64,000 nucleotides of DNA, taken from NCBI RefSeq assembly GCF_041595835.1, contig NZ_JBFHJO010000002.1, positions 78,752-142,751 on the forward strand, given 5' to 3'. Both the position numbers and the translations under genes were made by a program. Numbering within the stretch: position 1 is the stretch's first letter; the number at the start of each line of letters is the position of its first letter. The notes under the pieces are model-generated. The model was not told where the DNA came from, searched no databases, and worked only from the letters and a program-made list of their open reading frames with translations. This DNA is from Marinobacter sp. (GTDB lineage Bacteria; Pseudomonadota; Gammaproteobacteria; Pseudomonadales; Oleiphilaceae). Of the stretch, positions 7,182 through 28,971 are shown in pieces.

Positions 7182-7679
7182 ATGTCTGGCAAAGATGGTT
7201 CTGTCGCGCCAAAAGAGCGCATCAATATCAAGTATGTCCCCGCTACAGGAGATCAGCAGGCTGAAACTGAACTGCCGCTGAAGATGTTCGTGGTTGGTGA
7301 TTTCAAGGGGCATGCTGAAGAAACCCCCATTGAAGACCGTAAAGCCATTTCTGTTGATAAGAACAACTTCCGTTCTGTTATGAAGGAAGCTGGGCTTACT
7401 ATCTCTACCTCTGTACCCAACAAGCTTGAAGACAATGCTGATGACCTGCCGGTTAACCTGCAGATAGAAGGGCTGGAAGATTTCTCCCCTGACAGCATCG
7501 CGCGCCAGGTTCCTGAGCTGAAAAAGCTGATTGAACTGCGTGAAGCGCTTGTTGCCCTCAAGGGCCCTCTCGGTAACGTTCCGTCATTCCGCTCCAAGCT
7601 TCAGGAGTTGCTGGATAACGACAGCGCCCGGGAATCGCTGCTGGCTGAGCTGGAACTGGCGACTGAAAGCGGCGAGTAA
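7182..7679 (+). CDS. tssB: T6SS contractile sheath small subunit TssB (VipA)
   Basis: MSGKDGSVAPKERINIKYVPATGDQQAETELPLKMFVVGDF is the hallmark TssB N-terminus; GGGAG RBS before ATG 7182. Confidence 0.95.
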   Translation: MSGKDGSVAPKERINIKYVPATGDQQAETELPLKMFVVGDFKGHAEETPIEDRKAISVDKNNFRSVMKEAGLTISTSVPNKLEDNADDLPVNLQIEGLEDFSPDSIARQVPELKKLIELREALVALKGPLGNVPSFRSKLQELLDNDSARESLLAELELATESGE

Positions 7680-7742
7680 TCGCGTTTCCGGAACCGGGTA
7701 CAACCAACACCAATTATCAATTACGTACTGAAGGGATGTGGT

Positions 7743-9224: not shown

Positions 9225-9227
9225 TCC

Positions 9228-9665
9228 GTGTTTGGCGACACTGCGACTGACAGCGTTCGCAACACAGGCAGCCTGTTCGAAAGACTCGAGCAGGCTGCTG
9301 CCCCCGCGGGGCAAGGCATGGGAGAAGTGACTCATGTGGTGGAATCCATCAAACGCCATTTAGTGCGCTTGCTGAACGCTCATCCAGGCAACAGCGCAAG
9401 CGTGCCGGACCTGGGCTTGCTGGATTTCAACGACGCCACCCTGGGTACTCACGATCTGAGTATCCAGATTCGCGGGGCGATCCGTCAGTGTATCGAGAAG
9501 TTTGAGCCCAGAGTGAAACGGGTGGACGTGGTGGCGTTGCCGCCGGGCCCAAACCCATTGCAGTTGAAGTTTCAGGTTACGGTTTATCTGAGCGTCACAG
9601 GAAGTGATGACAGAACCACAATAGACCTGGTTTTAGATGAAAAGCGGTACTACCGGATAGCATGA
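9228..9665 (+). CDS. tssE: T6SS baseplate subunit TssE (gp25/lysozyme-like)
   Basis: 145 aa; SLFERLE...SIKRHLVRLLN...LGLLDFND motifs typical of TssE; GTG start. Confidence 0.9.
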   Translation: MFGDTATDSVRNTGSLFERLEQAAAPAGQGMGEVTHVVESIKRHLVRLLNAHPGNSASVPDLGLLDFNDATLGTHDLSIQIRGAIRQCIEKFEPRVKRVDVVALPPGPNPLQLKFQVTVYLSVTGSDDRTTIDLVLDEKRYYRIA

Positions 9666-9696
9666 ATCCGCCCGGAGTCAGACTGGTGCAGTATTT

Positions 9697-11469
9697 ATGA
9701 AGTTGAATCGGTTCTACAGGGATGAGTTGAACTTTTTGCGGCGGCAAGGCAGGGAATTTGCCGATGCACATCCGCAGCTCACCCGATTTTTATCTGAACA
9801 AAGCACCGACCCGGATGTAGAACGCCTTTTGGAAGGCTTTGCCTTCCTGACCGGCAAGCTGCGAGAAAAAGTTGAAGACGAATTTCCGGAGCTTACGCAC
9901 TCGCTGCTAAACATGCTCTGGCCTAATTACCTGCGGCCAGTGCCAAGTTGCACCATTATGCGTTTTGACCCACAGCTTCACGCTATCAGTGAACGTCAGC
10001 GGGTTGAGCGTCATACCGAAATCAAAAGCCGACCTGTGGGCGAATCCAGCCGCCAGACCCAGTGCCGGTTCCGAACCTGCCGGGCCGTAGATATTTTCCC
10101 AATCAGCGTGGCAGAGGCTCACGCCGAACATTCACGGGAGGTATCTTCTGTCTCTGTAGACCTGGCCTTGCACACCGATCAGCCCCTGAACACGCTGAGT
10201 CTTGAATGTCTGCGTTTTTATCTGGGTGGTGATAACCATACGGCTGAAACCTTGTATCTGTGGCTAAATCACTACCTCAGCCGAATGGAGTTGGTGGTGG
10301 GGGAGAGTGTTTATAACTTGCCACCGTCTCTGCTGAAGCCTGTCGGGTTTGCGTCAGAAGAGGCCATTTTGCCCTATCCGAAAAATGCCTATGCAGGTTA
10401 CCGGATTATTCAGGAATACCTGAGCTTTCCGGAGACATTCAGGTTTATCGATGTCACCGGCCTGAAATTACGGTTGCCATCGGTACAAGCGGATGAAGTC
10501 AGCCTTCGTTTCCATTTTAGCCGTATGTTGCCTCCGGACACTCGGGTAACCCGCGACTCCATGCAGCTTTACTGTACACCTGCGGTAAACCTGTTCCGCC
10601 ATGAGGGTGAGCCGGTAGACCTGAACGGCCGGGAAACCGAGTATCGGATTTCACCGTCCAGTCGCTGCCCTGAGCACTATGAAGTGTTCAGCATTGAACA
10701 GGTTGAAGGTTGGCTGGAAGGCCGCTCTGGCCGCGGTGAGCCGCGTATCTATACCGGGTTTGAAAGCTTCCAGCATGAAGTGGAGCGGGATCGTGGCCGT
10801 GCCGCACTGTATTACCGGGTGCGCACCCGGGAAAGCGTCCGGGGTGACGGCTTTGATCACTACATCGCCTTTGTTCGGGGGGATGAGTCCGACTGTATGA
10901 ACCGACAGGAAGCGGTTTCTCTGACGCTCACCTGTACTAATCGGCAATTGCCTCAGCAACTGGCGGTAGGCGAGATTTGTATGGCTACGGAAACTACGCC
11001 GGCCTTCGCCTCTTTCAGTAACATCACCCGGCCTACAGCCACCTTGCGGCCAACACTGGACGGTAGCTTGTTGTGGACGTTGATCTCCAATCTTTCACTG
11101 AACTACCTGTCCATGCTGGATGTGGATGCTCTGCGTACGGTGTTGCGTGTGTATGACTTTCGGGCTTTGGTTGATCGTCAGGCGGAGCGGGTCTCCCAGA
11201 AACGGCTGGCGGGTATCCGCGAAATAACGACTCAACCGGTGGACCGGATGATCCGGGGGTTACCTGTACGTGGCATACGCTCCGTGTTGACGCTGGATCA
11301 GCAGAACTTTGCCAGTGAAGGGGATTTATACCTGTTTGGCTCGGTGTTAAGCCAGTTTTTTGCGCTTTACGCCAGTATTAACGCCTTTCACCAGCTGGAA
11401 GTGGTGAATACAGAGAATAAGGAACGGTACACATGGACGTTACAGCAAGGTCAGCAGCCGCTGATGTAG
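9697..11469 (+). CDS. tssF: T6SS baseplate subunit TssF
   Basis: 590 aa; canonical N-terminus MKLNRFYRDELNFLRRQGREFADAHPQLTRFL...ERLLEGFAFL. Confidence 0.95.
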   Translation: MKLNRFYRDELNFLRRQGREFADAHPQLTRFLSEQSTDPDVERLLEGFAFLTGKLREKVEDEFPELTHSLLNMLWPNYLRPVPSCTIMRFDPQLHAISERQRVERHTEIKSRPVGESSRQTQCRFRTCRAVDIFPISVAEAHAEHSREVSSVSVDLALHTDQPLNTLSLECLRFYLGGDNHTAETLYLWLNHYLSRMELVVGESVYNLPPSLLKPVGFASEEAILPYPKNAYAGYRIIQEYLSFPETFRFIDVTGLKLRLPSVQADEVSLRFHFSRMLPPDTRVTRDSMQLYCTPAVNLFRHEGEPVDLNGRETEYRISPSSRCPEHYEVFSIEQVEGWLEGRSGRGEPRIYTGFESFQHEVERDRGRAALYYRVRTRESVRGDGFDHYIAFVRGDESDCMNRQEAVSLTLTCTNRQLPQQLAVGEICMATETTPAFASFSNITRPTATLRPTLDGSLLWTLISNLSLNYLSMLDVDALRTVLRVYDFRALVDRQAERVSQKRLAGIREITTQPVDRMIRGLPVRGIRSVLTLDQQNFASEGDLYLFGSVLSQFFALYASINAFHQLEVVNTENKERYTWTLQQGQQPLM

Positions 11470-12449: not shown

Positions 12450-12466
12450 GGCAAGGAGCCGGAGAC

Positions 12467-13657
12467 GTGGCAAAACAGAGAGCAGAACTGACGTTGGTGA
12501 TCACCAACCCCACGGAAATCAGCGGGGGGGCCAGTATCGAGCATTGTTTCAGCTCGACAGGTGGCTCTATCGGAACGGCGGCTAATGATACCTGGCGCTT
12601 GTCTCCACATCGCACGGGCGCTGTGCCTGGCCATGCTGAGGTGCGTTATCTGGATGGTGAGTTTTGCCTGATTGACCGTAGTGGCAGAACATTCATCAAC
12701 AGCAGTAGTCAACCCGTTGGGCGGGGGCGTCGCGCACGCCTTAGCCATGGTGACACGGTGACCATCGGGCGCTACCAGATGAGAGCAGAGCTCCATGATT
12801 GTTCTTCTGGAACGTCATGGTTTGAGGGAGAGGAGGGGCTGGATCATCAGCTTGTGGATGTTGGCGATGGTGAGTTACGTCGTTCCGGGCATGAACAGGA
12901 TGTATCTGAAGGCCGTGAACCTCTGGAAGGTCTTAAGGCATCAGATGATAACGTGCAAAACACGGATCCGCTGGCGTCTTGGCAGCAGCCAGATAGCTGC
13001 AATAACAGATACGTAACAAAGGAGCGACACGGAATGTCAGAGAGCAAGGTACCGGGTCCGGATGCCAGCCGTCAGCACATCAGCGGGGCTCCTCTGATGC
13101 GTGGCCTGGGCACTGAAATTGATTTTGCCGACAGTGATGACATGCGGCTGTTTCTTGAAGAAGCCGGCCAGACTCTGAAGGCGGCTGTCAATGGTCTGCT
13201 GGCACTACATATGGGCGAAGACACCCGGCATCGAGCTCTGCGCACCCGGCTTCAACCTATCGAAGATAACCCGTTGCGGTTAGGCAATGACTACGCCGGT
13301 ACCATCCGGGCACTGTTTGCCGCCGAGCGAAGCCCGGTTCATCTGTCTGCCCCGGCCGCCGTGAGGGAGAGCCTGGAGAGCCTGAATCATCACCAACAGG
13401 CAACGCAGGAGGCAATCCGTGAAGCGCTGGAAGCGATACTTCATGCCTTTTCGCCAGAAGCGTTGTTGCGCAGGTTCCACGGCTATCGCCGGGGCTTGCA
13501 GGATAACGAAGACGAGGGCCGCTGGGCCTGGAACATGTACCAACACTATTACCAAGAGCTGAGGTCCAGTCGTCAGCAGGGTTTTGAACGCCTGTTTCAG
13601 GAAGTGTTCGACCAGGCATACGACCAACACTTGCGCCAATTACAGAGGGAAAGTTGA
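12467..13657 (+). CDS. tagH: T6SS-associated FHA-domain protein (TagH/Fha)
   Basis: N-terminal FHA domain (GRSGRTFINSSSQPVGRGRRARLSHGDTVTIGRYQM), acidic linker, C-terminal TagH-like region; position between tssG and tssJ as in Vibrio. Confidence 0.85.
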   Translation: MAKQRAELTLVITNPTEISGGASIEHCFSSTGGSIGTAANDTWRLSPHRTGAVPGHAEVRYLDGEFCLIDRSGRTFINSSSQPVGRGRRARLSHGDTVTIGRYQMRAELHDCSSGTSWFEGEEGLDHQLVDVGDGELRRSGHEQDVSEGREPLEGLKASDDNVQNTDPLASWQQPDSCNNRYVTKERHGMSESKVPGPDASRQHISGAPLMRGLGTEIDFADSDDMRLFLEEAGQTLKAAVNGLLALHMGEDTRHRALRTRLQPIEDNPLRLGNDYAGTIRALFAAERSPVHLSAPAAVRESLESLNHHQQATQEAIREALEAILHAFSPEALLRRFHGYRRGLQDNEDEGRWAWNMYQHYYQELRSSRQQGFERLFQEVFDQAYDQHLRQLQRES

Positions 13658-14193
13658 TTGTGAATTACTGCAAATGGAGCTTGCTGACTATTGTGATATT
13701 TCTGGTGGGGTGCAGTACCCCTTATAACGCAGTTACCAAAACGGCCAAAGTGCTGTGGGACCCTGATATCCCTGTGGGCTATCCGGAAGATCAGCCCACT
13801 CTTGTGGATCTCACCATGCTTGCGGAACCGAGTGTAAACCCGAATCAGTCTTTGGCACCGACGCCGATCGCGTTTCAGATCATCGAATTGCGGGACAGTT
13901 CGTTGTTGATGGCGGGTGACTTCGATCAGTTGCTGAACAACCTTGAGGGCTCGCTCGGGCGGAACTACGTGGATCATAGCGATTACACCTTGGTGCCTGG
14001 CCAGTTCAAGTTTGTCGAACCTTTTGAAATCAGCGAAGACACGCGGTTTATCGGGGTGATTGCCTTTTATGCCTACCCCAACTTGTCCCAGTGGAAAAAA
14101 GTGGTGAAGGTTAATCCGATCGGAGGTACTTATCACCTGCTGGTAAACCTGCGTGAGCGGGAAGTGAAACTGACACCTTCGGATGAAAGCTGA
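13654..14193 (+). CDS. tssJ: T6SS outer-membrane lipoprotein TssJ
   Basis: Lipobox LVGC after a hydrophobic signal sequence; ~180 aa; conserved position. Confidence 0.85.
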   Translation: MIVNYCKWSLLTIVIFLVGCSTPYNAVTKTAKVLWDPDIPVGYPEDQPTLVDLTMLAEPSVNPNQSLAPTPIAFQIIELRDSSLLMAGDFDQLLNNLEGSLGRNYVDHSDYTLVPGQFKFVEPFEISEDTRFIGVIAFYAYPNLSQWKKVVKVNPIGGTYHLLVNLREREVKLTPSDES

Positions 14194-15527: not shown

Positions 15528-15530
15528 ATC

Positions 15531-16352
15531 ATGGCAGATGCACCGGTAATGGATGGACCAGGTAGCACCACGGATTCGGGTGATCGTGCATTCAGTGAAC
15601 TTCTGTTTGCGGGCTCCGGGAATACCGGCGACCGGCCAGAGTTTAATAACACAGCTTTTCAGCTTAGAGGGCTGGAAGAAAACCGCTTGATCGATGCCGC
15701 CACATCGTTACTGGGTCTGGTTATCCGGGTTCGCCGGCTGGCGGACTTCCGGGATGTGGAAAGTCTGTACCAGCAGGTACTGGACGAGGTCGCCGCTATC
15801 GACCGAGAGTTGGTCGAGCAGGGGTATGAGCGTCCCACCGTTGTGGCCTACCGTTATGTATTGTGTGCTTTCATCGACGAAGCAGTGCTGGGGACTGATT
15901 GGGGGGCTCACAGTGTGTGGTCCCAGCATTCTCTGCTATCGCGATTCCACAACGAAACCTGGGGTGGGGAAAAAGTCTTCGCCATTCTGGCTCGCATGGA
16001 GAAAGAGCCGGAGCGTTACAGGGATATGCTCGGCTTTATCTATCTGTGCCTGTGCCTGGGTTTTGAAGGTCGTTACAAGGTGATGGAAAACGGTCGGGAA
16101 GAATACGATCAGATTGTACGTGGTCTGTATGAGCAGTTACGAGACCTAAGAGGCGACAGGGATCCACGGCCGCTGGCTGATGCCTCAGAAAACGTGGTTC
16201 CGGCTCGTAACCGTTTGCGCAGCGGCTTGCCAGTCTGGGGTATTGGAGGTCTGTTTATCGCAGCGATGGCGGGCATTTACCACTTGTATAACGTGGCGCT
16301 GAACGAACGCATCAGGGATGTGCTCAGCGTTCTGGACCAACTACCAAAATAA
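15531..16352 (+). CDS. tssL: T6SS membrane-complex subunit TssL (DotU-like)
   Basis: DotU-type cytoplasmic domain (YRYVLCAFIDEAVL) plus single C-terminal TM (IGGLFIAAMAGIY). Confidence 0.9.
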   Translation: MADAPVMDGPGSTTDSGDRAFSELLFAGSGNTGDRPEFNNTAFQLRGLEENRLIDAATSLLGLVIRVRRLADFRDVESLYQQVLDEVAAIDRELVEQGYERPTVVAYRYVLCAFIDEAVLGTDWGAHSVWSQHSLLSRFHNETWGGEKVFAILARMEKEPERYRDMLGFIYLCLCLGFEGRYKVMENGREEYDQIVRGLYEQLRDLRGDRDPRPLADASENVVPARNRLRSGLPVWGIGGLFIAAMAGIYHLYNVALNERIRDVLSVLDQLPK

Positions 16353-16361
16353 GGATATCAC

Positions 16362-19005: not shown

Positions 19006-19260
19006 CCTGGAGGCTTCCTGAATCGTAACGCACCGTGGGGGATAGCTTTCCAAAACCCTGCGGAGCCATGGGTGAAGGGTGAAAGCCCTTCACGGGTTGG
19101 CCAGGGATGGCTAAGACAGGACCCTCACTGCGACGCAGGAGCAGTAAGCAGTGAGGGCGGAGCGGAGCGTACAGGGATGTATTCACAGCGTGTTTTGGAA
19201 AGCCACCCCGCAGGATGCGCGGGCGACGAACTCCCAAGTAATCATTTTGGAAACAGAAAC
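19006..19260 (+). other. highly structured non-coding intergenic region (two perfect hairpins plus a long-range inverted repeat) between clpV and vasH
   Basis: Hairpins GTGAAGGG-tgaaag-CCCTTCAC (19072-19093) and CCCTCACTGC-N16-GCAGTGAGGG (19122-19157); TTTCCAAAAC (19047) vs GTTTTGGAAA (19192); CCTGCGG vs CCGCAGG. Confidence 0.6.
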
Positions 19261-20835
19261 ATGGGAAGGATGCAGAAGGAACTGCACACCGGCATCGATC
19301 TGGCCGTGGCACTGATCAAACAGGACACGCTGACAGCGCTGTTGGACACCGCCACCCGGCAACTCGAACATGCCTTCGGACTCAGCAAGTGCTGGGCGCT
19401 GGAACTCGACCTCAGCGGCCGGACCCTGCACTGCAGCAAACTGGACGAAGCGGGCGAGTTTGATTGTAACGACTTCAGCCACCCCTTCGCCCACGTGCTG
19501 CAGACAGGCCAGCCGAGGGAGCTCACCCGTGCTGCCAGCTATCGCCTGGACCATGCCGGCTTCCAGACGCTCCTGGAACTTAGTGGCCGCCCGAGAAGCT
19601 TCTGGCTGGAACCCCTCAAAGGCGAAGACGGCCGGACCCTTGGCATGCTTGTACTTTGCGGCGATCACCCTGACTGGCAAGGCATCGTTGCTCAGTCACT
19701 GTACAGCGGGCTCAAGCAGCTACTGGTGCATCAATGGATCAGCCAGTTGCAAACCCGTGATCAGGTGTGGCAACGGCGGCTGCTCAAGCGCTCCCTCGAC
19801 CACCTGCACGATGCTGAAAGCCTGCGCCAGCGCTGCAGGCAGCTGGCCTGCACCCTGGTGGGTGATTCCGAAGCCATGGCCAACCTCCGGGCCCAGGTGG
19901 TGCGTGCGGCGGGTAGCCAGCTGTCAGTGTTGATCCAGGGTGAAACTGGTTGTGGCAAAGACGTCGTTGCCCGAGGTATTCACGATATGTCTGACCGCGC
20001 CAGTGGGCCTCTGGTGGTGGTGAATTGTGCGGCCATTCCAGACACCCTGTTGGAGAGCGAATTGTTCGGTCACACCAAGGGCGCATTCTCTGGCGCGGAT
20101 CAAGCCAAAGATGGCCTGCTGGCCCAGGCCAATGGAGGAACCCTGTTTCTGGATGAAATCGGCGACATGCCTATGGCGTTGCAATCCAAACTGTTGCGAG
20201 TCCTCGAAAGCCGACAGTTCCGGCCTTTGGGAGCCCGGGAAGAGCAATATTCAGATTTTCGTGTGGTAGCTGCTACCCATCAGCCTTTGCAGCAGGGCAT
20301 CGAAGAGGGCGTGTTCCGTCGGGACCTGTTTTACCGCCTGAGCCAGTTCCCGCTACGTGTGACTCCGCTGCGTGAGCGGACCGAAGATCTGGAAGCTCTG
20401 AGTCGCCATTTCATTGGCTTATACACCGAGCGCGAAGGCAGTGGCCCTCTCGGTATCAGCAGTCACTCCCTGCATACGTTGGCAGGCTATAACTTTCCGG
20501 GCAACGTGCGGGAGTTGCGCAATATCATCGAACTCGCGTGCCTGCAAACCCCGGAGGGTGACGATATTCAGCCTGAAGCCTTAAGGCTCGATGATCCACT
20601 CTCGGATACCTGCCGGCCCATAAATGCTGAAGCAGAAGCTCACATCATGCCCGGTGTGCCGATGACCGACGAAATTCGTGACCTGAAAGCCGCGGCGCAG
20701 GCGTTTGAGGCAGCGATTATCCGAGATCGCCTGCGGCAATACAACGGCAACCGCGCACAAGCCGCCGAAAGCCTGGGTTTGCCCAAGCGTACCTTGGCCC
20801 ATAAATGTCTGAAGTATCAGGTAACCGACGTATGA
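19261..20835 (+). CDS. vasH: sigma-54-dependent transcriptional activator (VasH-like bacterial enhancer-binding protein)
   Basis: Central AAA+ sigma54-interaction domain (GETGCGKDVVARGIH, GAFSGA, ESELFGH, FLDEIGDMP), C-terminal Fis-type HTH, N-terminal GAF-like region; start taken at MGRMQKEL ATG 19261, not the ORF-track 19072. Confidence 0.9.
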   Translation: MGRMQKELHTGIDLAVALIKQDTLTALLDTATRQLEHAFGLSKCWALELDLSGRTLHCSKLDEAGEFDCNDFSHPFAHVLQTGQPRELTRAASYRLDHAGFQTLLELSGRPRSFWLEPLKGEDGRTLGMLVLCGDHPDWQGIVAQSLYSGLKQLLVHQWISQLQTRDQVWQRRLLKRSLDHLHDAESLRQRCRQLACTLVGDSEAMANLRAQVVRAAGSQLSVLIQGETGCGKDVVARGIHDMSDRASGPLVVVNCAAIPDTLLESELFGHTKGAFSGADQAKDGLLAQANGGTLFLDEIGDMPMALQSKLLRVLESRQFRPLGAREEQYSDFRVVAATHQPLQQGIEEGVFRRDLFYRLSQFPLRVTPLRERTEDLEALSRHFIGLYTEREGSGPLGISSHSLHTLAGYNFPGNVRELRNIIELACLQTPEGDDIQPEALRLDDPLSDTCRPINAEAEAHIMPGVPMTDEIRDLKAAAQAFEAAIIRDRLRQYNGNRAQAAESLGLPKRTLAHKCLKYQVTDV

Positions 20836-21473
20836 CCCTGAAAGAGAAAATCCAACATGGCCTGCTTGGTCTGGTGCTGTTGTTGGCGAGCAGCAGCAGC
20901 TTGGCTGATCTGCGTCTGAGCAGAGCGGAAACCTGCTCGAAAGAAGCCAACCGGCTGGCAAGGCTGGCCTGTTTTGATGAGGTGTTTGGCACACCACTGG
21001 CTCGCTATGAAGAAGGCACAAAGGCGGTGGTAATTCATCAATCTGAGCGCTGGCGCCAGGCTTTTGCACAGTCAGGTCATGATGACACCGGAGGCGTGAT
21101 TTATCGGAATACCGGCACAGTGGCCGGGCATCTTGTGACGGTTACGGCCCTGGGTACTCAGCCTCCACGGCCGGTGCTGACGCTGCAGTGCCATAACAAC
21201 ATCACCGAGCTGATGGTGATGCTACCCGAACCGACAGGCCTGGAGCGGGTTGACGTAACTCTGGGCTCGGAGCGCAGCCAATGGCGAGTGCGGGACGAAG
21301 GCTTAGTGGTAAGTGCCGGTAGAGGTCTGCCCGCCATTCGGCTGGTGTCGGGGGTAGCCAGCCAGCCCGACGCCAGAATTCACGCCAATGCACCGGAACT
21401 GGATGGTCTGTTGTTTGACCTGAGCGGCTATGAAGACGCTATCAAGCCGTTACGAAAAGCTTGCGGCTGGTAA
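20832..21473 (+). CDS. T6SS-associated secreted protein occupying the vasI position (signal peptide, ~213 aa)
   Basis: MTLKEKIQHGLLGLVLLLASSSSLA signal peptide; ATGA coupling to vasH stop; location between vasH and tssA identical to V. cholerae vasI. Confidence 0.6.
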   Translation: MTLKEKIQHGLLGLVLLLASSSSLADLRLSRAETCSKEANRLARLACFDEVFGTPLARYEEGTKAVVIHQSERWRQAFAQSGHDDTGGVIYRNTGTVAGHLVTVTALGTQPPRPVLTLQCHNNITELMVMLPEPTGLERVDVTLGSERSQWRVRDEGLVVSAGRGLPAIRLVSGVASQPDARIHANAPELDGLLFDLSGYEDAIKPLRKACGW

Positions 21474-21485
21474 GGAGGGAGCCTC

Positions 21486-22931
21486 ATGCAGTTAATCGAA
21501 CAGCATCCTTACGTCGATCAAATACTCACCGCTATTCCGGGAGATTCCAGTACCGGTGGTAGTCTTGAAGATGACTGCGTACTGGAATTTCTGGAAGACG
21601 AAGTAAGGAAAGTAGGCTCGCTGGCCCACAACGACATCAACTGGAACAGGGTTGAAAGCGAATCGCTGCAACTGCTGGCAGATCGTAGCAAAGATATCAA
21701 AGTGCTGGGTTTCCTGATGTTGGCCTTGCAGCGGGGCGGCGATGGTGAGCGCTTTGCCTTGTCCCTTTACGTGCTGCACCGGGTGCTGGATGACTGGTGG
21801 GAAAAGGCCTGGCCCTTTCCCGGCGCAAAGGGCCAACGGGCTCGTAAAATGTTGTTTAACCAGATGTTGCAGAGGGCATTGAAAAGCGTCGAAGGTTTGG
21901 ACTTTGACGCCAGCGTAGGCGACGGACGTCAATTTTGTCTGGATCTGATTAGCAAACTCGATGACCAGGCGAAACAGCGAGGCCTGCCGGATGACCCGCT
22001 GTTTGATTTAAAACGGGCGGTAGAGAAACTGCCGAAACCGGATCAGGACGCCAATAACCCGATGCCCTCTGATGCTGAGACAGACAGTGTGGCCAGTACT
22101 CAGGTCGCACCGACGGCCAAACAACCTACTTCCAGTACGGCCTCTGCTGCTTTGGGGAGTCTCACTCTGGACCCGGGCAATGAGCGGGCTACCCGCCAGA
22201 GTTTACTGAAAGTTGCGGAATGGCTGACCAGTATCGAGCCAGGCAACCCGCTGGGTTACCAGGTTCGCCGTTATGCCATCTGGCAGAGTATCACCAGCCT
22301 GCCTCCAACCCGGGATGGCAAACGTACAGATTTGGCTGCTGTCAGCGCAGACCGGGTAGCGGATTACAAAGAAGCGCTGGATAAATTGCCAGATAACCAG
22401 TTGTGGCAACGCATTGAGCAGAGTTTATCGGTAAGTCCGTTCTGGCTGGACGGCCACTGGCTGAGCGCTCGCGTGGCCCAGGCTTTAGGTAAAAGCCGTT
22501 GTGCTGAAGCAATCAGGGAAGCCTTGAAGGCTTTTGTTGAACAGTTGCCGCAATTGGCAGAGTTGACCTTCAATGACCAAACACCGTTTCTCAGTGAAGA
22601 GGCTGCGGAATGGATGCACACGGTTCCCGTTTCAGCCGGGGCCAGTGGTGGTGGAACCAATCCCTGGGAGCAGGCGCTGGATAGCGCCCTCGAATTGGCG
22701 CAGAAAAACAAGTTGTCATCTGCGTTGGAACTCCTGGAACAGGGGCTGGCCGATGCCCGGGAGCCTCGGGAGCAATTCTACTGGCGTCTGGCTATTGCAA
22801 AGCTGATGAAAGAAACCGGCCTGAAAGCCATGGCGGCACAACAGATTCAGGATCTGCAGGGGCAGGTTCGCGGGCTGATTCTCGAAAACTGGGAACCAGG
22901 CCTTATCAAACAAATGGAACGACTGGCGTAA
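21486..22931 (+). CDS. tssA: T6SS protein TssA (ImpA N-terminal domain, VasJ-like)
   Basis: 481 aa; ImpA_N-type N-terminus (HPYVDQILTAIPGDSSTGGSLEDD...). Confidence 0.9.
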   Translation: MQLIEQHPYVDQILTAIPGDSSTGGSLEDDCVLEFLEDEVRKVGSLAHNDINWNRVESESLQLLADRSKDIKVLGFLMLALQRGGDGERFALSLYVLHRVLDDWWEKAWPFPGAKGQRARKMLFNQMLQRALKSVEGLDFDASVGDGRQFCLDLISKLDDQAKQRGLPDDPLFDLKRAVEKLPKPDQDANNPMPSDAETDSVASTQVAPTAKQPTSSTASAALGSLTLDPGNERATRQSLLKVAEWLTSIEPGNPLGYQVRRYAIWQSITSLPPTRDGKRTDLAAVSADRVADYKEALDKLPDNQLWQRIEQSLSVSPFWLDGHWLSARVAQALGKSRCAEAIREALKAFVEQLPQLAELTFNDQTPFLSEEAAEWMHTVPVSAGASGGGTNPWEQALDSALELAQKNKLSSALELLEQGLADAREPREQFYWRLAIAKLMKETGLKAMAAQQIQDLQGQVRGLILENWEPGLIKQMERLA

Positions 22932-22955
22932 CGCCCGTCCGCATTAAACGCAGGA

Positions 22956-25900
22956 ATGGATACCATGTGGAGAAAAGCATTACTCATTGGACGTTGGCTT
23001 CTGCCGTACCTCCGGAACGCTGCTCCGGTTGTTCTCGTGTTGAGCCTTATTGCCCTGCTGGTGGCAACCTGGTGGCTTGGCCCTCGCCTGGAAATTAATG
23101 ATGAATACCCTTTGGTTGCCTGGCAAATGCGGGCTCTGGTTACCCTTGGAGTGATTCTGTTGGTCGTGATGTTCTGGGGCATGGCCCTGGCTCGTCGCTT
23201 GGGTAAGGTCAACAAGGCCAAGGCCGCTGAGCAACAGGAGCAGGAAGATCCGATTCTGCCCATGGAGCGGCGGCAGCAACGCCTGCTCGACCGGCAGTTG
23301 CAGGCACTAAAAAGCAATTTGCCCGGTCGCAAAGGGCTGTATCGCTTGCCCTGGTATCTGGTGATGGGGCTGGAAGATGCCGGTAAAACCAGCTTGATTC
23401 AACGTTCGGGGCAAACCTACACACTAACCAATGTCACCCGTAACAATCGGAGAGAGCGTAACCCCTTTGGTTTTGATTGGTGGATTGGTGACCACGGCGT
23501 ACTGATTGATCCGGATGGTGAGCTGCTGAGTCAAAACCAGGGCGAAGGTGCCACGAGCGAAATTCAGAATCGGTTGTGGAACCACTTTATCGGCTGGCTG
23601 GAACGCAGCCGGCCGCAACGTCCTCTGAACGGTATTATTCTGGCTGTAGATTTGGCTCGACTGAGCGCCGAGGGCGATCAGCAACGTCAAGCCCAGGCGA
23701 TTCTGCTGCGGACGCGCGTGCGGGAATTGATGGAGCAACTAGGCTCACGCCTGCCAGTGTATGTCACCTTCACGAAAATGGACCTGCTGTACGGTTTTAC
23801 GCCTTTTGTTCGCACCTTGTCGAAGCTGGAAAAAGAGAAAGCACTTGGCTTTACTTTCCGGCTGGAGAGCCAGCAAGACCATGACCAATGGCTTGAGCAG
23901 TTTGCTGACCGATATGCACAAATGGTGGACGAGTTAAGCCAGCGCTTACCGGATGTACTTTCAGATACCCGAGATCCCGAAGAACGGGCTGCCGTATATT
24001 CGTTTACCCGTCAACTGGCCGGGCTTAAGCCGGCCATTGAGCAATTTCTCAGTGACCTGCTGTCAGCCGATGCCTTTTCAACCCCGGCCCTGGTCCGAGG
24101 TTCCTATTTCACCTCCGTTCTTCAGGAAGGTGTGCCGGAAGATGCCTTTGTGGCTGCAGCGGCCCGCAATTACCAGATCAGCAGCCCCATTCAACCGGCC
24201 CAGCGCAGTGGGCAGTCTGTCAGCTTGTTTACCAAAGATCTGTTTCCTGAAGTAATTTATCGGGAAGCAGGATTGGCCGGTGACAATCGCAAGGTTGTGA
24301 TCAAGCGCCGCAGGAAGGTTGCGTTCGCGGCTATGGTTGCCCTTTGTGCCGGAGCTGGCATAACTGCCGGCTGGCAGCACTATTTTATCAAAAATGCTGA
24401 AGCCGCTGTCCAGGTGGAAAACCGGGTTAACTCCTTCCTCAACAACTGGCAGCCTGTGGGTTACGAGCCAGACAGTACTGGCCGAAACCTGCTCCAGCCA
24501 CTGGATGAACTGCGGGAAGCCACGCTGGCTTTCGGCGACTACCGCAAGGAATGGCCGTTGGTCACCGATATGGGACTGTATCAGGGCCATAAAGTCGGGC
24601 CGGAAGTTGATACAGCCTATCTGGACATGCTGGCCTATCAATATCTGCCGACTTTGATGTTCGGTGTGATGGAAGAAATGGGCCAGGCACCCGACAACAG
24701 TACGGAACGGCTGGAGCACTTGCGAGTGCTTCGCATGATGTACGATGAGAGCGGGCGTCGCAGCGATATTGTCTTTGCGTACATGCGGGAATACTGGCAA
24801 GTTCGATTCCCCGGTCAGCGGGATGTGCAAAATCGCCTGTACAGCCATTTACAGTACGCCATGACCCATACCAATCTGGCTGGAATGGCTGCAGAAGGTG
24901 ACCAGGCTGCAATTATGGCGCTGGCACCGTTCCGCAGTAGTGTTCAGTGGGCGCAGCATGAACTGGGTCGCATCAGTACACCGGACCGCGTTTACCAGGA
25001 TCTGGAGGCAGAAGCGCGCCGGGAATTGCAGTCGCCTCTGGAGTTGGCGCGCAGTTCGGGCCCGGCATTTTCCACCGTGTTCACCCGAGTTGATGCATAT
25101 GGGGAACCACTTGCCGGAGAACTACCAACTGAAGAGGACCCCATCGCAATCGATATGTTGTTGACGCGAGAGGGGCTGGAGAAGTGGTTCCTGCGTAAAT
25201 CTGGCTCTGTGACCGAGTTGGCGCTGGTTGATGCCTGGGTGCTTGGGCGCCGGAATGACGTTGACTTCAGTAAAGCGGACGAAGCTGAATTACTGGCCAG
25301 CCTGCAAACCCTGTATGCAGAGAACTACGCAAACACCTGGCGCACTGCGCTGAGTCGAGTCGACATTCACCGGTTTACAGATCTCAATCATGGGGTGCGT
25401 ATTCTGGAAAGCCTCACCAGCGGCCACCAACCGTTGGCCCGCTTTTTAGGTGAGATTCAGAATAATACTCGCCTGATTCCTGTGGGTGAGGGCGAAGCCG
25501 AAATAGCCCGGAAGCTGCTTGAGGAGTCACCTCATTTCAGAATGCTCCAGGATATCGAGCGCCAGTTTGATGAACTGAATCAGTTAACGCGAAAACAAGG
25601 TGATCATCCGACGGGGCTGGATGAAATTATGGTGGTGGTCACGGAACTGCACGAATATATGCGCAGTATTCAGGAGTCGCCGGATGCTGGTAAAGCAGCA
25701 CTGAGCGCAGCGCGAGCGCGCATGGGGCTTCAGGGTGCAGACCCTATATTCACTTTACAGCGCATGGCAGGCCATCAGCCAGAGCCGTTGAACCGCTTGT
25801 TGAATCGCCTTGCGACCGAGAGCTGGCGGGTTGTGCTTGATAAGGCTGTGGCTCAGCTTGAGCGAGAGTGGTACAGGGAGGTGTATCAGCCATTCCAGCA

Positions 25901-26549
25901 GAATCTGGCTCGCCACTACCCATTTGCCTCCGAAGCGGGTCGGGACGCTGCCCTGCAGGATTTTGAGCGATTTTTCGCACCGGACGGCATACTGGAAAAC
26001 TTCTACAACGACAACCTGAAACTGTTCCTGGAAGATCACCCTGAACAGGTGGGCGATGCCCGTAAAGCAAGCCTGGTGCGTCGGGATGTACTTGCTGCAC
26101 TGAACCGGGCACGACAGATTCGCCAGGCGTTCTTTACGCGAAGCGGAACTCTGGATGTAGAGTTTGCATTGGAGCCTTTGAACCTCTCCAATAATAAGCG
26201 CCGAGCCGTTGTCAATCTTGATGGCCAACTGGTGGAGTTCTCTCATGGGCCGCGCCAGAGCATACCTTTGGTATGGCCCAATACCTTGCGGGATGCGGTA
26301 GAAAGCCGAATTACTTTGGTGCCGGTACAGGTCAACCGTTCGCCCAGGAGTATTTCGGAAAATGGCCCCTGGGCATTGTTCCGGTTGTTGGATAAAGCAG
26401 ATATCACTGGCGTCAGTAGTAACGCGGTGGACGTGATGTTCAAAGTGGATGATGGCGAGATGCGTTACCGCCTGCATGCGGCCAGTAATACCAACCCGTT
26501 CACACAGCAGCTACTTGCAGGCTACCGAATTCCCCGCAGCTTGTATTAA
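22956..26549 (+). CDS. tssM: T6SS membrane-complex subunit TssM (IcmF/VasK)
   Basis: 1197 aa; N-terminal TM helices, P-loop GLEDAGKTSLIQRSG, IcmF-related C-terminal region. Confidence 0.95.
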   Translation: MDTMWRKALLIGRWLLPYLRNAAPVVLVLSLIALLVATWWLGPRLEINDEYPLVAWQMRALVTLGVILLVVMFWGMALARRLGKVNKAKAAEQQEQEDPILPMERRQQRLLDRQLQALKSNLPGRKGLYRLPWYLVMGLEDAGKTSLIQRSGQTYTLTNVTRNNRRERNPFGFDWWIGDHGVLIDPDGELLSQNQGEGATSEIQNRLWNHFIGWLERSRPQRPLNGIILAVDLARLSAEGDQQRQAQAILLRTRVRELMEQLGSRLPVYVTFTKMDLLYGFTPFVRTLSKLEKEKALGFTFRLESQQDHDQWLEQFADRYAQMVDELSQRLPDVLSDTRDPEERAAVYSFTRQLAGLKPAIEQFLSDLLSADAFSTPALVRGSYFTSVLQEGVPEDAFVAAAARNYQISSPIQPAQRSGQSVSLFTKDLFPEVIYREAGLAGDNRKVVIKRRRKVAFAAMVALCAGAGITAGWQHYFIKNAEAAVQVENRVNSFLNNWQPVGYEPDSTGRNLLQPLDELREATLAFGDYRKEWPLVTDMGLYQGHKVGPEVDTAYLDMLAYQYLPTLMFGVMEEMGQAPDNSTERLEHLRVLRMMYDESGRRSDIVFAYMREYWQVRFPGQRDVQNRLYSHLQYAMTHTNLAGMAAEGDQAAIMALAPFRSSVQWAQHELGRISTPDRVYQDLEAEARRELQSPLELARSSGPAFSTVFTRVDAYGEPLAGELPTEEDPIAIDMLLTREGLEKWFLRKSGSVTELALVDAWVLGRRNDVDFSKADEAELLASLQTLYAENYANTWRTALSRVDIHRFTDLNHGVRILESLTSGHQPLARFLGEIQNNTRLIPVGEGEAEIARKLLEESPHFRMLQDIERQFDELNQLTRKQGDHPTGLDEIMVVVTELHEYMRSIQESPDAGKAALSAARARMGLQGADPIFTLQRMAGHQPEPLNRLLNRLATESWRVVLDKAVAQLEREWYREVYQPFQQNLARHYPFASEAGRDAALQDFERFFAPDGILENFYNDNLKLFLEDHPEQVGDARKASLVRRDVLAALNRARQIRQAFFTRSGTLDVEFALEPLNLSNNKRRAVVNLDGQLVEFSHGPRQSIPLVWPNTLRDAVESRITLVPVQVNRSPRSISENGPWALFRLLDKADITGVSSNAVDVMFKVDDGEMRYRLHAASNTNPFTQQLLAGYRIPRSLY

Positions 26550-26552
26550 ACT

Positions 26553-26774
26553 GTGTCCCGTCGCCCGGGTATGTGTGCCCGGGTTGGCGGGAGCCGGCAC
26601 CGGGAAACCGACCTTCAGTTTCTGGAACGACTGGCCGCCGAAGAAGGCTGGCACTACCGCTACCAGCACGGCGACACCCCGAAACTGGCCCCGGTCACTC
26701 GAGTGATTATTATGGATCGCATAGCTACCGTTCTGACTCGATTCCCGAGCAAAGCAATCAGACTCAGGAGCTAA
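26553..26774 (+). pseudogene. vgrG: vgrG remnant (internal fragment of the gp27-like region only)
   Basis: ETDLQFLERLAAEEGWHYRYQHGDT matches the conserved VgrG segment (S/TDLxFLxRLLEEEGIYYYFEH); no start, gp5-like or C-terminal parts; surrounding frames broken. Confidence 0.6.
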
Positions 26775-26993
26775 ACCGAACCGGATGAATCTTTCTATCG
26801 GTTGATCAACCTTCTTCTTGCTGCCACCACCAACCGCGAAGACGTACTGGCGCAATATGAACGAAGAAGACTACAAAGCCTTCATTCCCCGTTTGTGACC
26901 GGCGTTTTATTGGGGAGGGTGATCAAATGCCTACGCAACATGCCCCCGAACTGGCTAAAATGTGCCAATGTATCAATGCAGAGATCACACGTG

Positions 26994-27437: not shown

Positions 27438-27464
27438 ATCTGCTTCCGCCTGCATCGCAGGTTT

Positions 27465-28963: not shown

Positions 28964-28971
28964 GAGTATAA

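What the first reader, a model, noticed from the sequence alone, without database searches (positions are those of the whole stretch)
7182..26549. Complete T6SS structural core in exact Vibrio cholerae large-cluster order, but with no spike or tube genes in cis
The gene order is tssB-tssC-tssE-tssF-tssG-fha-tssJ-tssK-tssL-clpV-vasH-vasI-tssA-tssM, reproducing the V. cholerae VCA0107-VCA0120 arrangement, including the embedded sigma-54 activator and the FHA protein. There is no hcp, no intact vgrG, no PAAR and no recognisable effector/immunity pair anywhere in the 64 kb. Tube, spike and toxins must therefore be supplied from auxiliary loci that are likely VasH/sigma-54 controlled, or the system is defective. 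This is a non-Vibrio host (the GC content and flanking genes look Marinobacter-like), so the cluster may have been acquired as a block. The left flank carries a stand-alone integrase-N-terminal-like gene and the right flank a vgrG stump.
Basis: partly seen in the sequence, partly recalled or inferred. Interest (0 to 1): 0.55.

Follow-up and report, generated by a model that had tools for sequence, protein, structure and literature searches.

The report
Marinobacter T6SS cluster, spike module deleted
This is the ordinary, intact type VI secretion (T6SS) main gene cluster that most Marinobacter species carry: the tube gene always lies elsewhere in this genus, and this strain has deleted the spike-toxin-immunity genes that its closest relatives keep right after the cluster.

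Summary
Fourteen uninterrupted + strand genes (7182-26549) run tssB-tssC-tssE-tssF-tssG-tagH(FHA)-tssJ-tssK-tssL-clpV-vasH-vasI-tssA-tssM. All score full-length against Pfam, and all with a dedicated NCBIfam T6SS model score above its cut-off. A six-frame search of the 64 kb finds no hcp, PAAR or effector. Only about 105 nt of vgrG remain (26594-26698).

The interpretation needs correcting.
- **Not a recent block acquisition.** The cluster occurs in 54 Marinobacter species representatives, sits between conserved flanks, and has native composition. There is no tRNA or complete integrase.
- **Trans-encoded hcp is normal for the genus and already published.** It lies at a separate PP2C/Ser-Thr-kinase-hcp locus. 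In all 14 loci examined, a sigma-54 -24/-12 element sits 63-67 nt upstream of the ATG.
- **The stump is a deletion scar.** In the closest relatives tssM is followed by vgrG, a DUF4123 adaptor, a large VasX-like effector and immunity genes, then the same DUF4124 gene as here. This lineage lost about 8-9 kb.
- **A missing cis vgrG is common.** Eighteen other species lack one after tssM. One of them (M. piscensis) carries a vgrG-effector module on another contig.

The machine is probably still functional with a trans-encoded tube and spike, but the strain's own genome could not be searched. Interest is low.

The parts
7182..7679 (+). tssB/vipA, sheath small subunit (165 aa; ATG at 7182, preceded by AGGGAG)
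   Evidence: PF05591 at 1.4e-55; TIGR03358 184.6 bits against a 97 cut-off; start seen; same 165-aa call on L001
7743..9224 (+). tssC/vipB, sheath large subunit
   Evidence: PF05943 plus PF18945; TIGR03355 719 bits; E 9e-272 to V. cholerae VipB 5mxn
9228..9665 (+). tssE, baseplate gp25-like subunit
   Evidence: PF04965; TIGR03357 129.7 bits against a 53 cut-off
9697..11469 (+). tssF, baseplate subunit
   Evidence: PF05947 at 1e-161; TIGR03359 678 bits
11433..12449 (+). tssG, baseplate subunit
   Evidence: PF06996; TIGR03347 346 bits
12467..13657 (+). tagH, T6SS-associated FHA protein
   Evidence: PF00498 plus PF20232; TIGR03354 276 bits against a 120 cut-off
13654..14193 (+). tssJ, outer-membrane lipoprotein
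   Evidence: PF12790; TIGR03352 114.5 bits
14193..15527 (+). tssK, baseplate subunit
   Evidence: PF05936 at 1.5e-158; TIGR03353 502 bits; dN/dS 0.02-0.04 against relatives
15531..16352 (+). tssL/DotU, membrane complex subunit
   Evidence: PF09850; TIGR03349 228 bits
16318..19005 (+). clpV/tssH, AAA+ sheath-recycling ATPase; both Walker A motifs (GDAGVGKS, GPSGVGKT) and Walker B motifs present
   Evidence: TIGR03345 1176 bits against an 885 cut-off; motifs
19072..20835 (+). vasH, sigma-54 enhancer-binding protein (GAF, AAA+, HTH_8). Motifs GETGCGK, GAFSGA and LFLDE are present. The true start is probably near 19177 (M36), because relatives align from residue 28-30.
   Evidence: PF00158 at 8.8e-67, PF01590, PF02954; motifs; alignment ranges
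20805..21473 (+). vasI, T6SS accessory protein
   Evidence: PF11319; TIGR03360 136.6 bits against a 124 cut-off
21486..22931 (+). tssA/vasJ
   Evidence: PF06812 plus PF16989; TIGR03362 394 bits
22956..26549 (+). tssM/vasK, inner-membrane IcmF-like subunit with Walker A GLEDAGKT
   Evidence: Four IcmF Pfam domains; TIGR03348 977 bits; motif; 1197 aa as in most relatives, including all the closest ones
26550..26605 (+). Retained tssM-vgrG intergenic DNA, up to deletion junction 1. The junction lies in the microhomology CCGGCACC / CCAGCACC.
   Evidence: 77-96% identity to positions 13595-13650 of L002-L014; alignment A1
26594..26698 (+). vgrG remnant made of two internal fragments. These correspond to about nt 444-522 and 568-599 of the relatives' vgrG. 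They are joined by a 51-bp in-frame deletion between CACGGC repeats. The start codon, OB-fold and gp5 C-terminal parts are missing.
   Evidence: blastn 78-95% to vgrG of about 30 loci; Phage_GPD positions 123-161 only; VgrG HMM positions 148-177, E 4e-14; alignment A1
26708..26785 (+). 26-codon remnant of an immunity-array-type gene of the lost module
   Evidence: tblastn 88% over aa 55-80 of the L003 393-aa gene (21673-22854), E 1.5e-9; 61% to its 386-aa neighbour; blastn 88.5% over 61 nt
26994..27437 (+). DUF4124 gene, the first conserved right-flank gene. Collinearity with Marinobacter sp. F3R11 resumes at 26881.
   Evidence: PF13511; 86% nt identity of 26881-37449 to L154 8385-18941; 100% identity to Logan contig L153
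6195..6506 (-). Left-flank stand-alone integrase-N-terminal (SAM-like) domain gene. It has no catalytic domain and is conserved at this position in the genus.
   Evidence: PF13495 only; matches integron-integrase model positions 3-81 of 315 at 57.6 bits against a 265 cut-off; present in 14 of 22 informative metagenomic Marinobacter contigs
6651..6911 (-). Acyl-CoA-binding protein gene, divergent from tssB. It is the conserved immediate left neighbour of the cluster.
   Evidence: PF00887 at 3.5e-30; adjacent to tssB in L073-L096

Best explanation
The region is the vertically inherited main cluster of the single Vibrio-cholerae-like (i1-type) type VI secretion system of Marinobacter.

It encodes these parts:
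- the membrane complex (TssJ, TssL, TssM);
- the baseplate (TssE, TssF, TssG, TssK);
- the sheath (TssB, TssC);
- the cap/assembly protein TssA;
- the recycling ATPase ClpV;
- the accessory proteins TagH (FHA) and VasI;
- the sigma-54 activator VasH.

In this genus the tube gene hcp is never part of this operon. It sits at a separate chromosomal locus behind a PP2C-Ser/Thr-kinase gene and a conserved sigma-54 promoter. VasH made from the main cluster therefore most likely switches on tube production in trans, as in V. cholerae (inferred). The kinase/phosphatase probably acts on TagH (inferred).

The closest relatives carry a cargo module directly after tssM: vgrG, a DUF4123 adaptor, a roughly 1150-1400-aa VasX-like or unclassified effector, and immunity genes. 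In this lineage that module was removed by illegitimate, microhomology-associated deletions. What remains is 56 nt of intergenic DNA, about 105 nt of internal vgrG and a 78-nt piece of an immunity-type gene.

The 14 machine genes are all intact, so the apparatus is probably still assembled. It would then fire with Hcp from the orphan locus and a VgrG-effector set from one or more auxiliary loci, as seen in related species. The deletion would have changed the strain's toxin/immunity repertoire rather than abolished secretion.

Shown: gene identities, integrity, the absence of hcp, vgrG and PAAR in the 64 kb, the deletion scar, and the arrangements in relatives. Inferred: the presence of hcp and auxiliary vgrG in this strain's own genome, VasH control of hcp, and functionality.
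For: - Core gene identity and integrity. dN/dS is 0.02-0.17 against three relatives. ATPase and EBP motifs are intact.
- Negative six-frame searches.
- Genus-wide presence: 54 loci at 71-91% TssM identity.
- Cis module in relatives: vgrG begins about 80-120 bp after tssM in 31 loci, including every informative locus with at least 86% TssM identity. Module content was established by Pfam in L004, L048, L028 and L154.
- Scar mapping. F3R11 has the same right flank with the module still in place.
- hcp is orphan. The Marinobacter Hcp cluster has 258 members. The typical locus is ExbBD-TonB, FNT transporter, PP2C-kinase, hcp. The sigma-54 element is present in 14 of 14 loci at a fixed distance and absent upstream of tssB and vgrG.
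[quoted passage not shown] VasH/RpoN drive the hcp operons but not the large cluster in V. cholerae (PMC4858559).
- Auxiliary spikes exist in the genus. M. piscensis has a main cluster without cis vgrG on contig 1 (L034) and vgrG-DUF4123-VasX_N-DUF6708 on contig 3 (L071). M. litoralis Sw-45 has both a cis module (L003) and an auxiliary one (L072). Several species have two or more VgrG paralogues.
- At least 13 draft contigs, some 100-790 kb long, terminate inside the vgrG that follows tssM. This is the expected effect of a multi-copy gene.
Against: - The strain's own genome could not be searched. Only three short pieces of it are indexed: Logan SRR29257459 contigs L001 and L153, and an NCBI 175-kb contig that could not be fetched. 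Its hcp and any auxiliary vgrG are therefore inferred from relatives.
- No PAAR gene was identified in any Marinobacter locus examined. The PAAR query was a consensus written from memory.
- Low dN/dS reflects the whole divergence from other species (dS 0.4-2.1). It cannot show that selection continued after the deletion.
- The deletion junctions at 26594-26730 are not covered by the independent Logan contig, which starts at 26731.
Confidence: 0.75

Rival explanations
1. The system is disabled and on its way to being lost. With the cis spike/effector module gone, and possibly no usable VgrG elsewhere, the 14 genes are an as yet undecayed relic.
For: The only vgrG sequence in 64 kb is a 105-nt fragment. 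Auxiliary loci could not be checked in this genome. T6SS cargo modules and whole clusters are commonly lost in bacteria (general knowledge).
Against: All 14 ORFs are full-length, pass the family cut-offs and keep their catalytic motifs. The scar shows at least three separate junctions, so it is probably not brand-new, yet no core gene carries a lesion. Eighteen other Marinobacter species keep the cluster without any cis vgrG, and one of them has its vgrG module elsewhere.
Confidence: 0.18
2. The cluster was recently acquired as a block from a Vibrio-like donor. The integrase-like gene and the vgrG stump would then mark the island borders.
For: Gene order is identical to the V. cholerae large cluster, and protein identity is very high (TssC about 85%; a Marinobacter Hcp from L028 is 78% identical to V. 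cholerae Hcp). An integrase-N-like ORF lies on the left.
Against: The cluster is present in 54 Marinobacter species. Both flanks are conserved across the genus. GC is 0.51-0.59 and GC3 0.55-0.69, within the range of the flanking genes. There is no tRNA, no Rfam element and no flanking repeats. The integrase-like gene lacks a catalytic domain and is itself conserved in the genus. The stump is explained by an internal deletion relative to relatives.
Confidence: 0.03
3. The apparent deletion is an assembly artefact: a mis-join through multi-copy vgrG sequence in a draft or metagenome-assembled contig.
For: vgrG breaks many Marinobacter assemblies at exactly this place. The independent Logan contig begins at 26731 and so does not span the junctions.
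Against: A collapse through a repeat would leave a full repeat copy with swapped flanks. It would not leave a 105-nt internal fragment with a 51-bp in-frame microdeletion between CACGGC repeats, a 5' junction in 8-bp microhomology, and a separate 78-nt immunity-gene fragment. The sequence from 26731 onwards is 100% identical in an independent assembly of run SRR29257459.
Confidence: 0.04

Closest known systems
Vibrio cholerae T6SS large cluster (vipA-vasK, VCA0107-VCA0120) with hcp in auxiliary clusters under VasH/RpoN control
   Same: - The 14-gene order is the same, including fha, clpV, vasH, vasI and vasJ. The V. cholerae order is from established knowledge.
- TssC is about 85% identical to VipB, and a Marinobacter Hcp (L028) is 78% identical to V. 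cholerae Hcp.
- hcp is encoded away from the main cluster behind a sigma-54 promoter (PMC4858559).
- There is no sigma-54 consensus upstream of the first sheath gene.
- Relatives carry VasX_N-type effectors with DUF4123 adaptors.
   Different: - V. cholerae continues after vasK with vasL, VCA0122, vgrG3 and tsiV3, and has PAAR/tagA-like genes upstream. Here tssM is followed only by a vgrG scar, and an ACBP gene lies upstream.
- In Marinobacter hcp is a solitary gene behind a PP2C-Ser/Thr-kinase, not the first gene of an hcp-vgrG-adaptor-effector-immunity operon.
- Auxiliary vgrG modules lack hcp and a recognisable sigma-54 site.
Main T6SS cluster of other Marinobacter species (M. litoralis, M. 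vinifirmus, M. nauticus, Marinobacter sp. F3R11, M. atlanticus as published)
   Same: - The genes and order are the same from tssK to tssM, the part of the cluster those loci cover, with 74-96% protein identity per gene.
- The left and right flanking genes are the same.
- hcp is trans-encoded.
   Different: Those with at least 86% TssM identity keep vgrG-DUF4123-effector-immunity between tssM and the right flank. This strain has about 330 nt of scar there. No other sampled species shows a vgrG remnant: species without cis vgrG have none at all.
Pseudomonas aeruginosa H1-T6SS threonine-phosphorylation pathway (PpkA/PppA/Fha1)
   Same: An FHA protein lies in the main cluster, and a PP2C phosphatase plus Hanks-type kinase are linked to a T6SS gene (hcp) in relatives.
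   Different: The kinase and phosphatase are fused into one 588-591-aa protein in most loci and are encoded at the hcp locus, not in the main cluster. No kinase is present in this window. Phosphorylation of TagH is untested.

Membership tests
Type VI secretion system (T6SS-i) main cluster | Sheath, baseplate, membrane-complex, cap and ATPase genes TssA, B, C, E, F, G, H, J, K, L and M present and intact | tested here: met
   All eleven exceed the cut-off of the matching NCBIfam model (an equivalog for ten; the DotU/TssL subfamily-domain model for TssL) with near full-length profile coverage. Pfam agrees.
Type VI secretion system (T6SS-i) main cluster | Tube protein TssD/Hcp encoded | tested here: not met
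   No Hcp in six frames of the 64 kb (HMM best E 0.69; tblastn; Pfam). In relatives it is encoded at a separate locus. Its presence elsewhere in this genome is not testable here.
Type VI secretion system (T6SS-i) main cluster | Spike protein TssI/VgrG encoded (gp27-like, OB-fold and gp5-like domains) | tested here: not met
   Only HMM positions 148-177 (Phage_GPD 123-161 of 305) survive at 26594-26698, scoring 27.9 bits, below the 30.1 cut-off. Intact VgrG of relatives has PF05954, PF04717 and PF22178.
Type VI secretion system (T6SS-i) main cluster | PAAR tip protein and effector/immunity pair | tested here: not met
   No PAAR, DUF4123, VasX_N, Rhs or other effector-associated Pfam family in any scanned ORF of the window. 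tblastn with relatives' adaptor, effector and immunity proteins gives only the 26-aa fragment at 26708-26785.
Type VI secretion system (T6SS-i) main cluster | Hcp secretion or contact-dependent killing | not testable with these tools
   Requires experiments.
V. cholerae-type (VasH-regulated) T6SS | Gene order vipA-vipB-tssE-vasA-vasB-fha-vasD-vasE-vasF-clpV-vasH-vasI-vasJ-vasK | tested here: met
   The order in the window was determined. The V. cholerae order is taken from established knowledge, not re-derived from sequence here.
V. cholerae-type (VasH-regulated) T6SS | Embedded sigma-54 enhancer-binding protein with an AAA+ domain, a GAFTGA-type loop and a C-terminal HTH | tested here: met
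   PF00158 at 8.8e-67, GAF, HTH_8. GETGCGK Walker A, GAFSGA loop and LFLDE Walker B are present. No VasH-specific NCBIfam model exists, and no regulator equivalog cut-off was reached.
V. cholerae-type (VasH-regulated) T6SS | Sigma-54 (-24/-12) promoter upstream of hcp | tested here: inconclusive
   Met in 14 of 14 hcp loci of other Marinobacter (TGGCAC-N5-TTGT[A/T] in 13, TGGCGC-N5-TTGCT in L060; 63-67 nt from the ATG). The hcp locus of this strain is not available. Promoter activity and VasH dependence are untested.
Genomic island / recent horizontal acquisition | Functional integrase, tRNA or att borders, deviant composition, patchy distribution among close relatives | tested here: not met
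   The integrase-like ORF covers only positions 3-81 of 315 of the integron-integrase model. No tRNA. GC and GC3 are like the flanks. The cluster and both flanks are conserved in the genus.
Tyrosine recombinase / integron integrase (ORF 6195-6506) | C-terminal catalytic domain with the R-H-R-Y residues | tested here: not met
   Only the N-terminal SAM-like domain is present (PF13495; 57.6 bits against a 265 cut-off). The adjacent DNA is occupied by an opposite-strand gene.

The most novel reading that the evidence does not exclude
This lineage may have been caught shortly after 'disarming'. It keeps a full T6SS machine but has thrown away the main-cluster spike, toxin and matching immunity genes. 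That would switch it to a different effector set. It would also make it sensitive to sister strains that still carry the lost toxin, or it would leave the machine serving a non-antagonistic role, such as the biofilm- or metal-related roles proposed for Marinobacter. The multi-junction scar would then be a rare fossil of effector-module turnover by deletion rather than by the replacement described for V. cholerae.
Probability: 0.15. Interest if true: 0.4.

Novelty: new member of a known kind. Interest (0 to 1): 0.15.

Why it matters
There is little here beyond correct annotation. A T6SS main cluster without hcp is the rule in Marinobacter, as in V. cholerae, so its absence should not be read as a defect or as evidence of recent transfer.

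The modestly useful point is the precisely mapped deletion scar. Cargo (vgrG-adaptor-effector-immunity) modules at the 3' end of the cluster are gained and lost within the genus. Loss of the immunity genes would alter which neighbours this strain can coexist with.

The conserved sigma-54 site in front of the orphan hcp, next to a PP2C-kinase fusion, gives a testable regulatory model for the genus.

Tried and rejected
- **Finding the strain's own genome so that hcp and vgrG could be looked for.** Exact look-ups of TssC and TssB returned only an 8.3-kb Logan contig. TssM is not on record. The DUF4124 protein is listed on a 175-kb NCBI contig, but only a 3-kb Logan contig of run SRR29257459 could be fetched. 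The own-genome test therefore failed.
- **Hoping Hcp variant P0002 or P0122 would come from run SRR29257459.** They came from other runs. One is SRR29257516, whose accession number is close to SRR29257459. I did not count this as evidence.
- **Sigma-54 consensus scan of the window.** There were 49 matches against 47 expected by chance, and none lay in the tssB upstream region. This is uninformative except as a negative for tssB.
- **The 155-aa ORF at 5716-6183 as a possible divergent Hcp.** It has no Pfam or NCBIfam hit, has a signal-peptide-like N-terminus (my reading of the sequence) and is conserved as a flank gene. Rejected.
- **The 667-aa and 1750-aa ORFs downstream as VgrG or an effector.** The 1750-aa protein is DUF3686 plus AAA. 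The 667-aa protein has no VgrG domains. Both are conserved right-flank genes in F3R11. Rejected.
- **The Logan contig start at 26731 as a sign of repeated vgrG sequence.** Rejected, because the other Logan contig ends at an arbitrary place inside tssF.
- **PAAR search.** The query was a consensus written from memory and is weak. The Pfam scans are the real negative.
- **tRNA, Rfam and repeat scans.** They found nothing relevant.

Full report
**1. What is in the window**

The + strand from 7182 to 26549 carries 14 tightly packed ORFs. Pfam assigns them as follows:
- VipA/TssB
- VipB/TssC
- gp25-like TssE
- TssF
- TssG
- an FHA protein with the T6SS-specific C-terminal domain (TagH)
- TssJ
- TssK
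- DotU/TssL
- a double-AAA ClpV
- a GAF / sigma-54-interaction / HTH_8 regulator (VasH)
- VasI
- ImpA_N + VasJ (TssA)
- a four-domain IcmF/TssM

NCBIfam models give the same names. Scores are well above the curated cut-offs and profile coverage is essentially end to end; VasH has no dedicated model. Examples are TssC at 719 bits against 271, TssM at 977 against 388 and ClpV at 1176 against 885.

The catalytic and signature motifs are intact:
- ClpV has both Walker A and both Walker B motifs.
- TssM has the Walker A motif GLEDAGKT.
- VasH has GETGCGK, the sigma-54-contact loop GAFSGA, and LFLDE.

Gene lengths equal those of orthologues in other species. No core gene is frameshifted. The order is that of the V. 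cholerae large cluster vipA to vasK (established knowledge). TssC aligns to V. cholerae VipB (PDB 5mxn) at E 9e-272 with roughly 85% identity.

**2. Absence of tube, spike, tip and toxin genes**

Every ORF I took to be a gene, plus candidate ORFs in the largest gaps, was scanned against Pfam. None is Hcp, VgrG, PAAR, a T6SS adaptor or a recognisable effector.

tblastn was run against all six frames with three kinds of query: Hcp sequences written from memory (V. cholerae and P. aeruginosa), a real Marinobacter VgrG, and the adaptor, effector and immunity proteins of relatives. Apart from one VgrG fragment, nothing was found.

Profile HMMs were built from 131 Hcp and 80 VgrG homologues and run without filters on 1468 six-frame segments. 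The best Hcp hit had E=0.69. The single VgrG hit was at 26550-26771, covering HMM positions 148-177 (E 4e-14).

The only intergenic gaps over 300 bp are the 444-bp scar region and a 324-bp gap that holds a non-PAAR ORF.

Pfam sees Phage_GPD positions 123-161 of 305 at 27.9 bits, below the 30.1 cut-off. The 211-aa ORF at 26802-27437 is a DUF4124 protein, not VgrG.

**3. Host and distribution**

A scan of one genome per GTDB species with TssM returned 54 loci at 71-91% identity. All are titled Marinobacter except one unnamed MAG. Two distant hits were also returned.

The strain itself is not among them; the best match is 91%, to Marinobacter sp. SS5-14b. Two Logan contigs from run SRR29257459 are 99.97% and 100% identical to parts of the window. 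An identical DUF4124 protein is listed on a 175-kb NCBI 'Marinobacter sp.' contig that I could not fetch.

**4. The stump is a deletion scar**

In 31 of the 54 loci a vgrG gene starts about 80-120 bp after tssM. These include every informative locus with at least 86% TssM identity. The cargo modules that follow are:

| Relative (locus) | Genes after vgrG |
|---|---|
| M. litoralis (L004) | DUF4123 adaptor, 1297-aa effector, 345-aa putative immunity gene |
| M. vinifirmus (L048) | DUF4123, 1148-aa VasX_N effector, DUF6708-like gene, DUF4124 |
| M. metalliresistant (L028) | DUF4123, VasX_N effector, DUF6708-like gene |
| Marinobacter sp. F3R11 (L154) | DUF4123, VasX_N effector, 440-aa and 538-aa genes |

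F3R11 is the most telling case. It is the closest available relative on the right flank. After the module it carries DUF4124, rhomboid, p109, PspA, DUF2170, p208, p667 and DUF3686, exactly the window's right flank. Window 26881-37449 is collinear with it at 86% nucleotide identity.

Alignment with relatives resolves the 330 nt between tssM and that point:
- **26550-26605** is the normal tssM-vgrG spacer.
- **Junction 1** lies in the imperfect 8-bp direct repeat CCGGCACC / CCAGCACC. It removes the vgrG start and its first 148 or so codons.
- **26594-26672 and 26667-26698** match two internal vgrG stretches (up to 95% identity). They are joined by a 51-bp in-frame deletion between CACGGC repeats.
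- **vgrG homology ends at 26698.**
- **26708-26785** encodes 26 residues that are 88% identical to residues 55-80 of one gene in the three-gene immunity-like array of M. litoralis Sw-45 (L003 21673-22854).

This lineage therefore once had the cis module. It lost about 8-9 kb in what looks like several microhomology-associated events, or one complex event.

No transposase, repeat, tRNA or Rfam element accompanies the scar.

**5. Lack of a cis spike is common in the genus**

Eighteen loci with usable downstream sequence have no vgrG after tssM and no remnant. tssM is followed instead by genes that are not T6SS-related:
- an OmpA-like beta-barrel protein gene and a phosphoesterase in M. pelagius;
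- the ATP-dependent DNA ligase in M. aromaticivorans (the ligase lies at 41955 in this window);
- a DUF883 protein in M. xiaoshiensis.

M. piscensis is one of these species. Its main cluster is on contig VCGX01000001 (L034). A vgrG-DUF4123-VasX_N-DUF6708 module, followed by a second partial module, sits among metabolic and transporter genes on VCGX01000003.

M. litoralis Sw-45 has both the cis module and an auxiliary vgrG-effector-immunity locus on another contig. Several species show two or more VgrG paralogues.

At least 13 draft contigs, some hundreds of kilobases long, stop inside the vgrG after tssM. This is what multi-copy vgrG sequence does to short-read assemblies.

**6. Where hcp is**

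One relative (L028) happens to have hcp 8 kb downstream of tssM, behind a Ser/Thr kinase gene. Its product is 78% identical to my recalled V. cholerae Hcp, and it seeded a search. The top cluster has 258 members named Marinobacter Hcp.

In NCBI genomes and metagenomes the locus is conserved. It reads ExbB-ExbD-ExbD-TonB, a formate/nitrite-family transporter, a 588-591-aa PP2C-kinase fusion (split in some), hcp, and one or two small unknown genes, next to nitrate-assimilation genes.

In all 14 hcp loci a sigma-54-type element lies 63-67 nt upstream of the ATG. It reads TGGCAC-N5-TTGT[A/T] in 13 loci and TGGCGC-N5-TTGCT in L060. No such element lies upstream of tssB, of the cis vgrG or of the auxiliary vgrG genes.

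[quoted passage not shown] It is also reported as conserved next to TonB/ExbBD across the genus and as the most strongly regulated T6SS gene (PMC8233155).

In V. cholerae, VasH and RpoN are required for the hcp operons but not for the large cluster (PMC4858559). The Marinobacter arrangement fits the same two-tier scheme. VasH dependence in Marinobacter is inferred, not shown.

**7. Not a recently acquired block**

- A metagenome scan with TssB returned 24 contigs with at least 81% TssB identity. Where upstream sequence exists, they share the left flank: response regulator, histidine kinase, p93, GreB, p155, the integrase-N-like gene (present in 14 of 22) and ACBP, then tssB.
- The integrase-like ORF has only the N-terminal SAM-like domain: model positions 3-81 of 315, at 57.6 bits against a 265 cut-off. 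It is itself a conserved gene.
- GC (0.51-0.59) and GC3 (0.55-0.69) of the T6SS genes lie within or marginally above the range of the flanking genes (GC 0.48-0.56, GC3 0.48-0.67).
- dN/dS against three species is 0.02-0.17 at dS 0.4-2.1. This indicates long-term purifying selection.

An ancient transfer into the ancestor of the genus is not excluded. One more distant contig (L097, TssB 74%) has the same left flank with hcp directly upstream of tssB.

**8. Mechanism and verdict**

The best-supported reading has four parts.
- The window contains the intact, vertically inherited main cluster of a V. cholerae-like T6SS.
- Hcp is supplied in trans from the orphan sigma-54-driven locus, as everywhere in the genus.
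- The cis VgrG-adaptor-effector-immunity module has been deleted in this lineage.
- Firing, if it occurs, depends on auxiliary vgrG modules of the kind seen in relatives.

Functionality and the presence of those loci in this strain are inferred. A decaying system remains a real alternative (about 0.18). An assembly artefact is unlikely given the structure of the scar, but the junctions lack independent coverage.

The finding is correct as an observation, over-interpreted on horizontal transfer, and biologically ordinary. The mapped scar and the conserved hcp promoter / PP2C-kinase linkage are the only mildly new details.

Noticed in passing
L061-L070 (e.g. L062 6015-8519), L058 8065-10525, L028 21631-23500: In Marinobacter the orphan hcp gene sits directly downstream of a PP2C-phosphatase / Hanks-kinase fusion protein (588-591 aa; two separate genes in L058). 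The FHA protein TagH is in the main cluster. This suggests a trans-encoded threonine-phosphorylation switch like PpkA/PppA/Fha1 of P. aeruginosa, which V. cholerae is not known to use.
   Followed up: partly
L028 about 22211-22226 (minus strand); L058-L070, 63-67 nt upstream of hcp: A sigma-54 -24/-12 element lies at a fixed distance from the hcp start in 14 of 14 loci from different species and metagenomes. It reads TGGCAC-N5-TTGT[A/T] in 13 loci and TGGCGC-N5-TTGCT in L060. It is absent upstream of tssB and of all the vgrG genes checked.
   Followed up: yes
L097 6993-8253: A more distant relative (TssB 74%) has the same left flank (RR, HK, GreB, integrase-N-like gene, ACBP) but carries hcp immediately upstream of tssB. 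This may be an older arrangement, from before hcp moved or was lost from the main locus.
   Followed up: no
L002, L005, L007, L010-L014, L017, L024, L031, L045, L050, L154 (contig ends): Draft-genome contigs, some 100-790 kb long, end inside the vgrG gene that follows tssM. This is consistent with two or more near-identical vgrG copies per genome breaking short-read assemblies.
   Followed up: partly
L003 20529-23590; L071 17140-20091: M. litoralis Sw-45 has three consecutive immunity-like genes after its cis effector. M. piscensis has an auxiliary locus with a second module headed by a 282-aa vgrG C-terminal fragment. Both resemble the effector-displacement and immunity-array pattern described for V. 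cholerae.
   Followed up: no
window 29010-38338: A conserved gene group lies to the right of the T6SS: PspA/IM30, DUF2170, a 208-aa membrane protein, a 667-aa coiled-coil protein with an N-terminal membrane segment and no Pfam match, and a 1750-aa DUF3686-DUF7902-AAA protein. The set is collinear in Marinobacter sp. F3R11. Its function is unknown; a membrane-stress or remodelling module is possible.
   Followed up: no
window 50236-52955: A VIT-VWA protein (713 aa) is followed by a sortase-domain protein (193 aa), next to a divergently transcribed two-component system (47316-50057). I recognise this, from memory, as the proteobacterial sortase system pairing.
   Followed up: no
window 27465-28559 (minus strand) and 55163-56614 (plus strand): There are two rhomboid-family protease genes in one 64-kb window. 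The first is fused to two TFIIB-type zinc ribbons.
   Followed up: no
window 41955-42854 versus L020 13681-14565: The ATP-dependent DNA ligase (LigB-type with OB_2 domain) that lies 15 kb downstream of tssM here directly abuts tssM in M. aromaticivorans. The region between tssM and the ligase is therefore variable in content across the genus.
   Followed up: no
window 19072-19176: The longest vasH ORF starts at a GTG 35 codons upstream of the first ATG. Relatives align only from residue 28-30, so the annotated start is probably too far upstream.
   Followed up: partly
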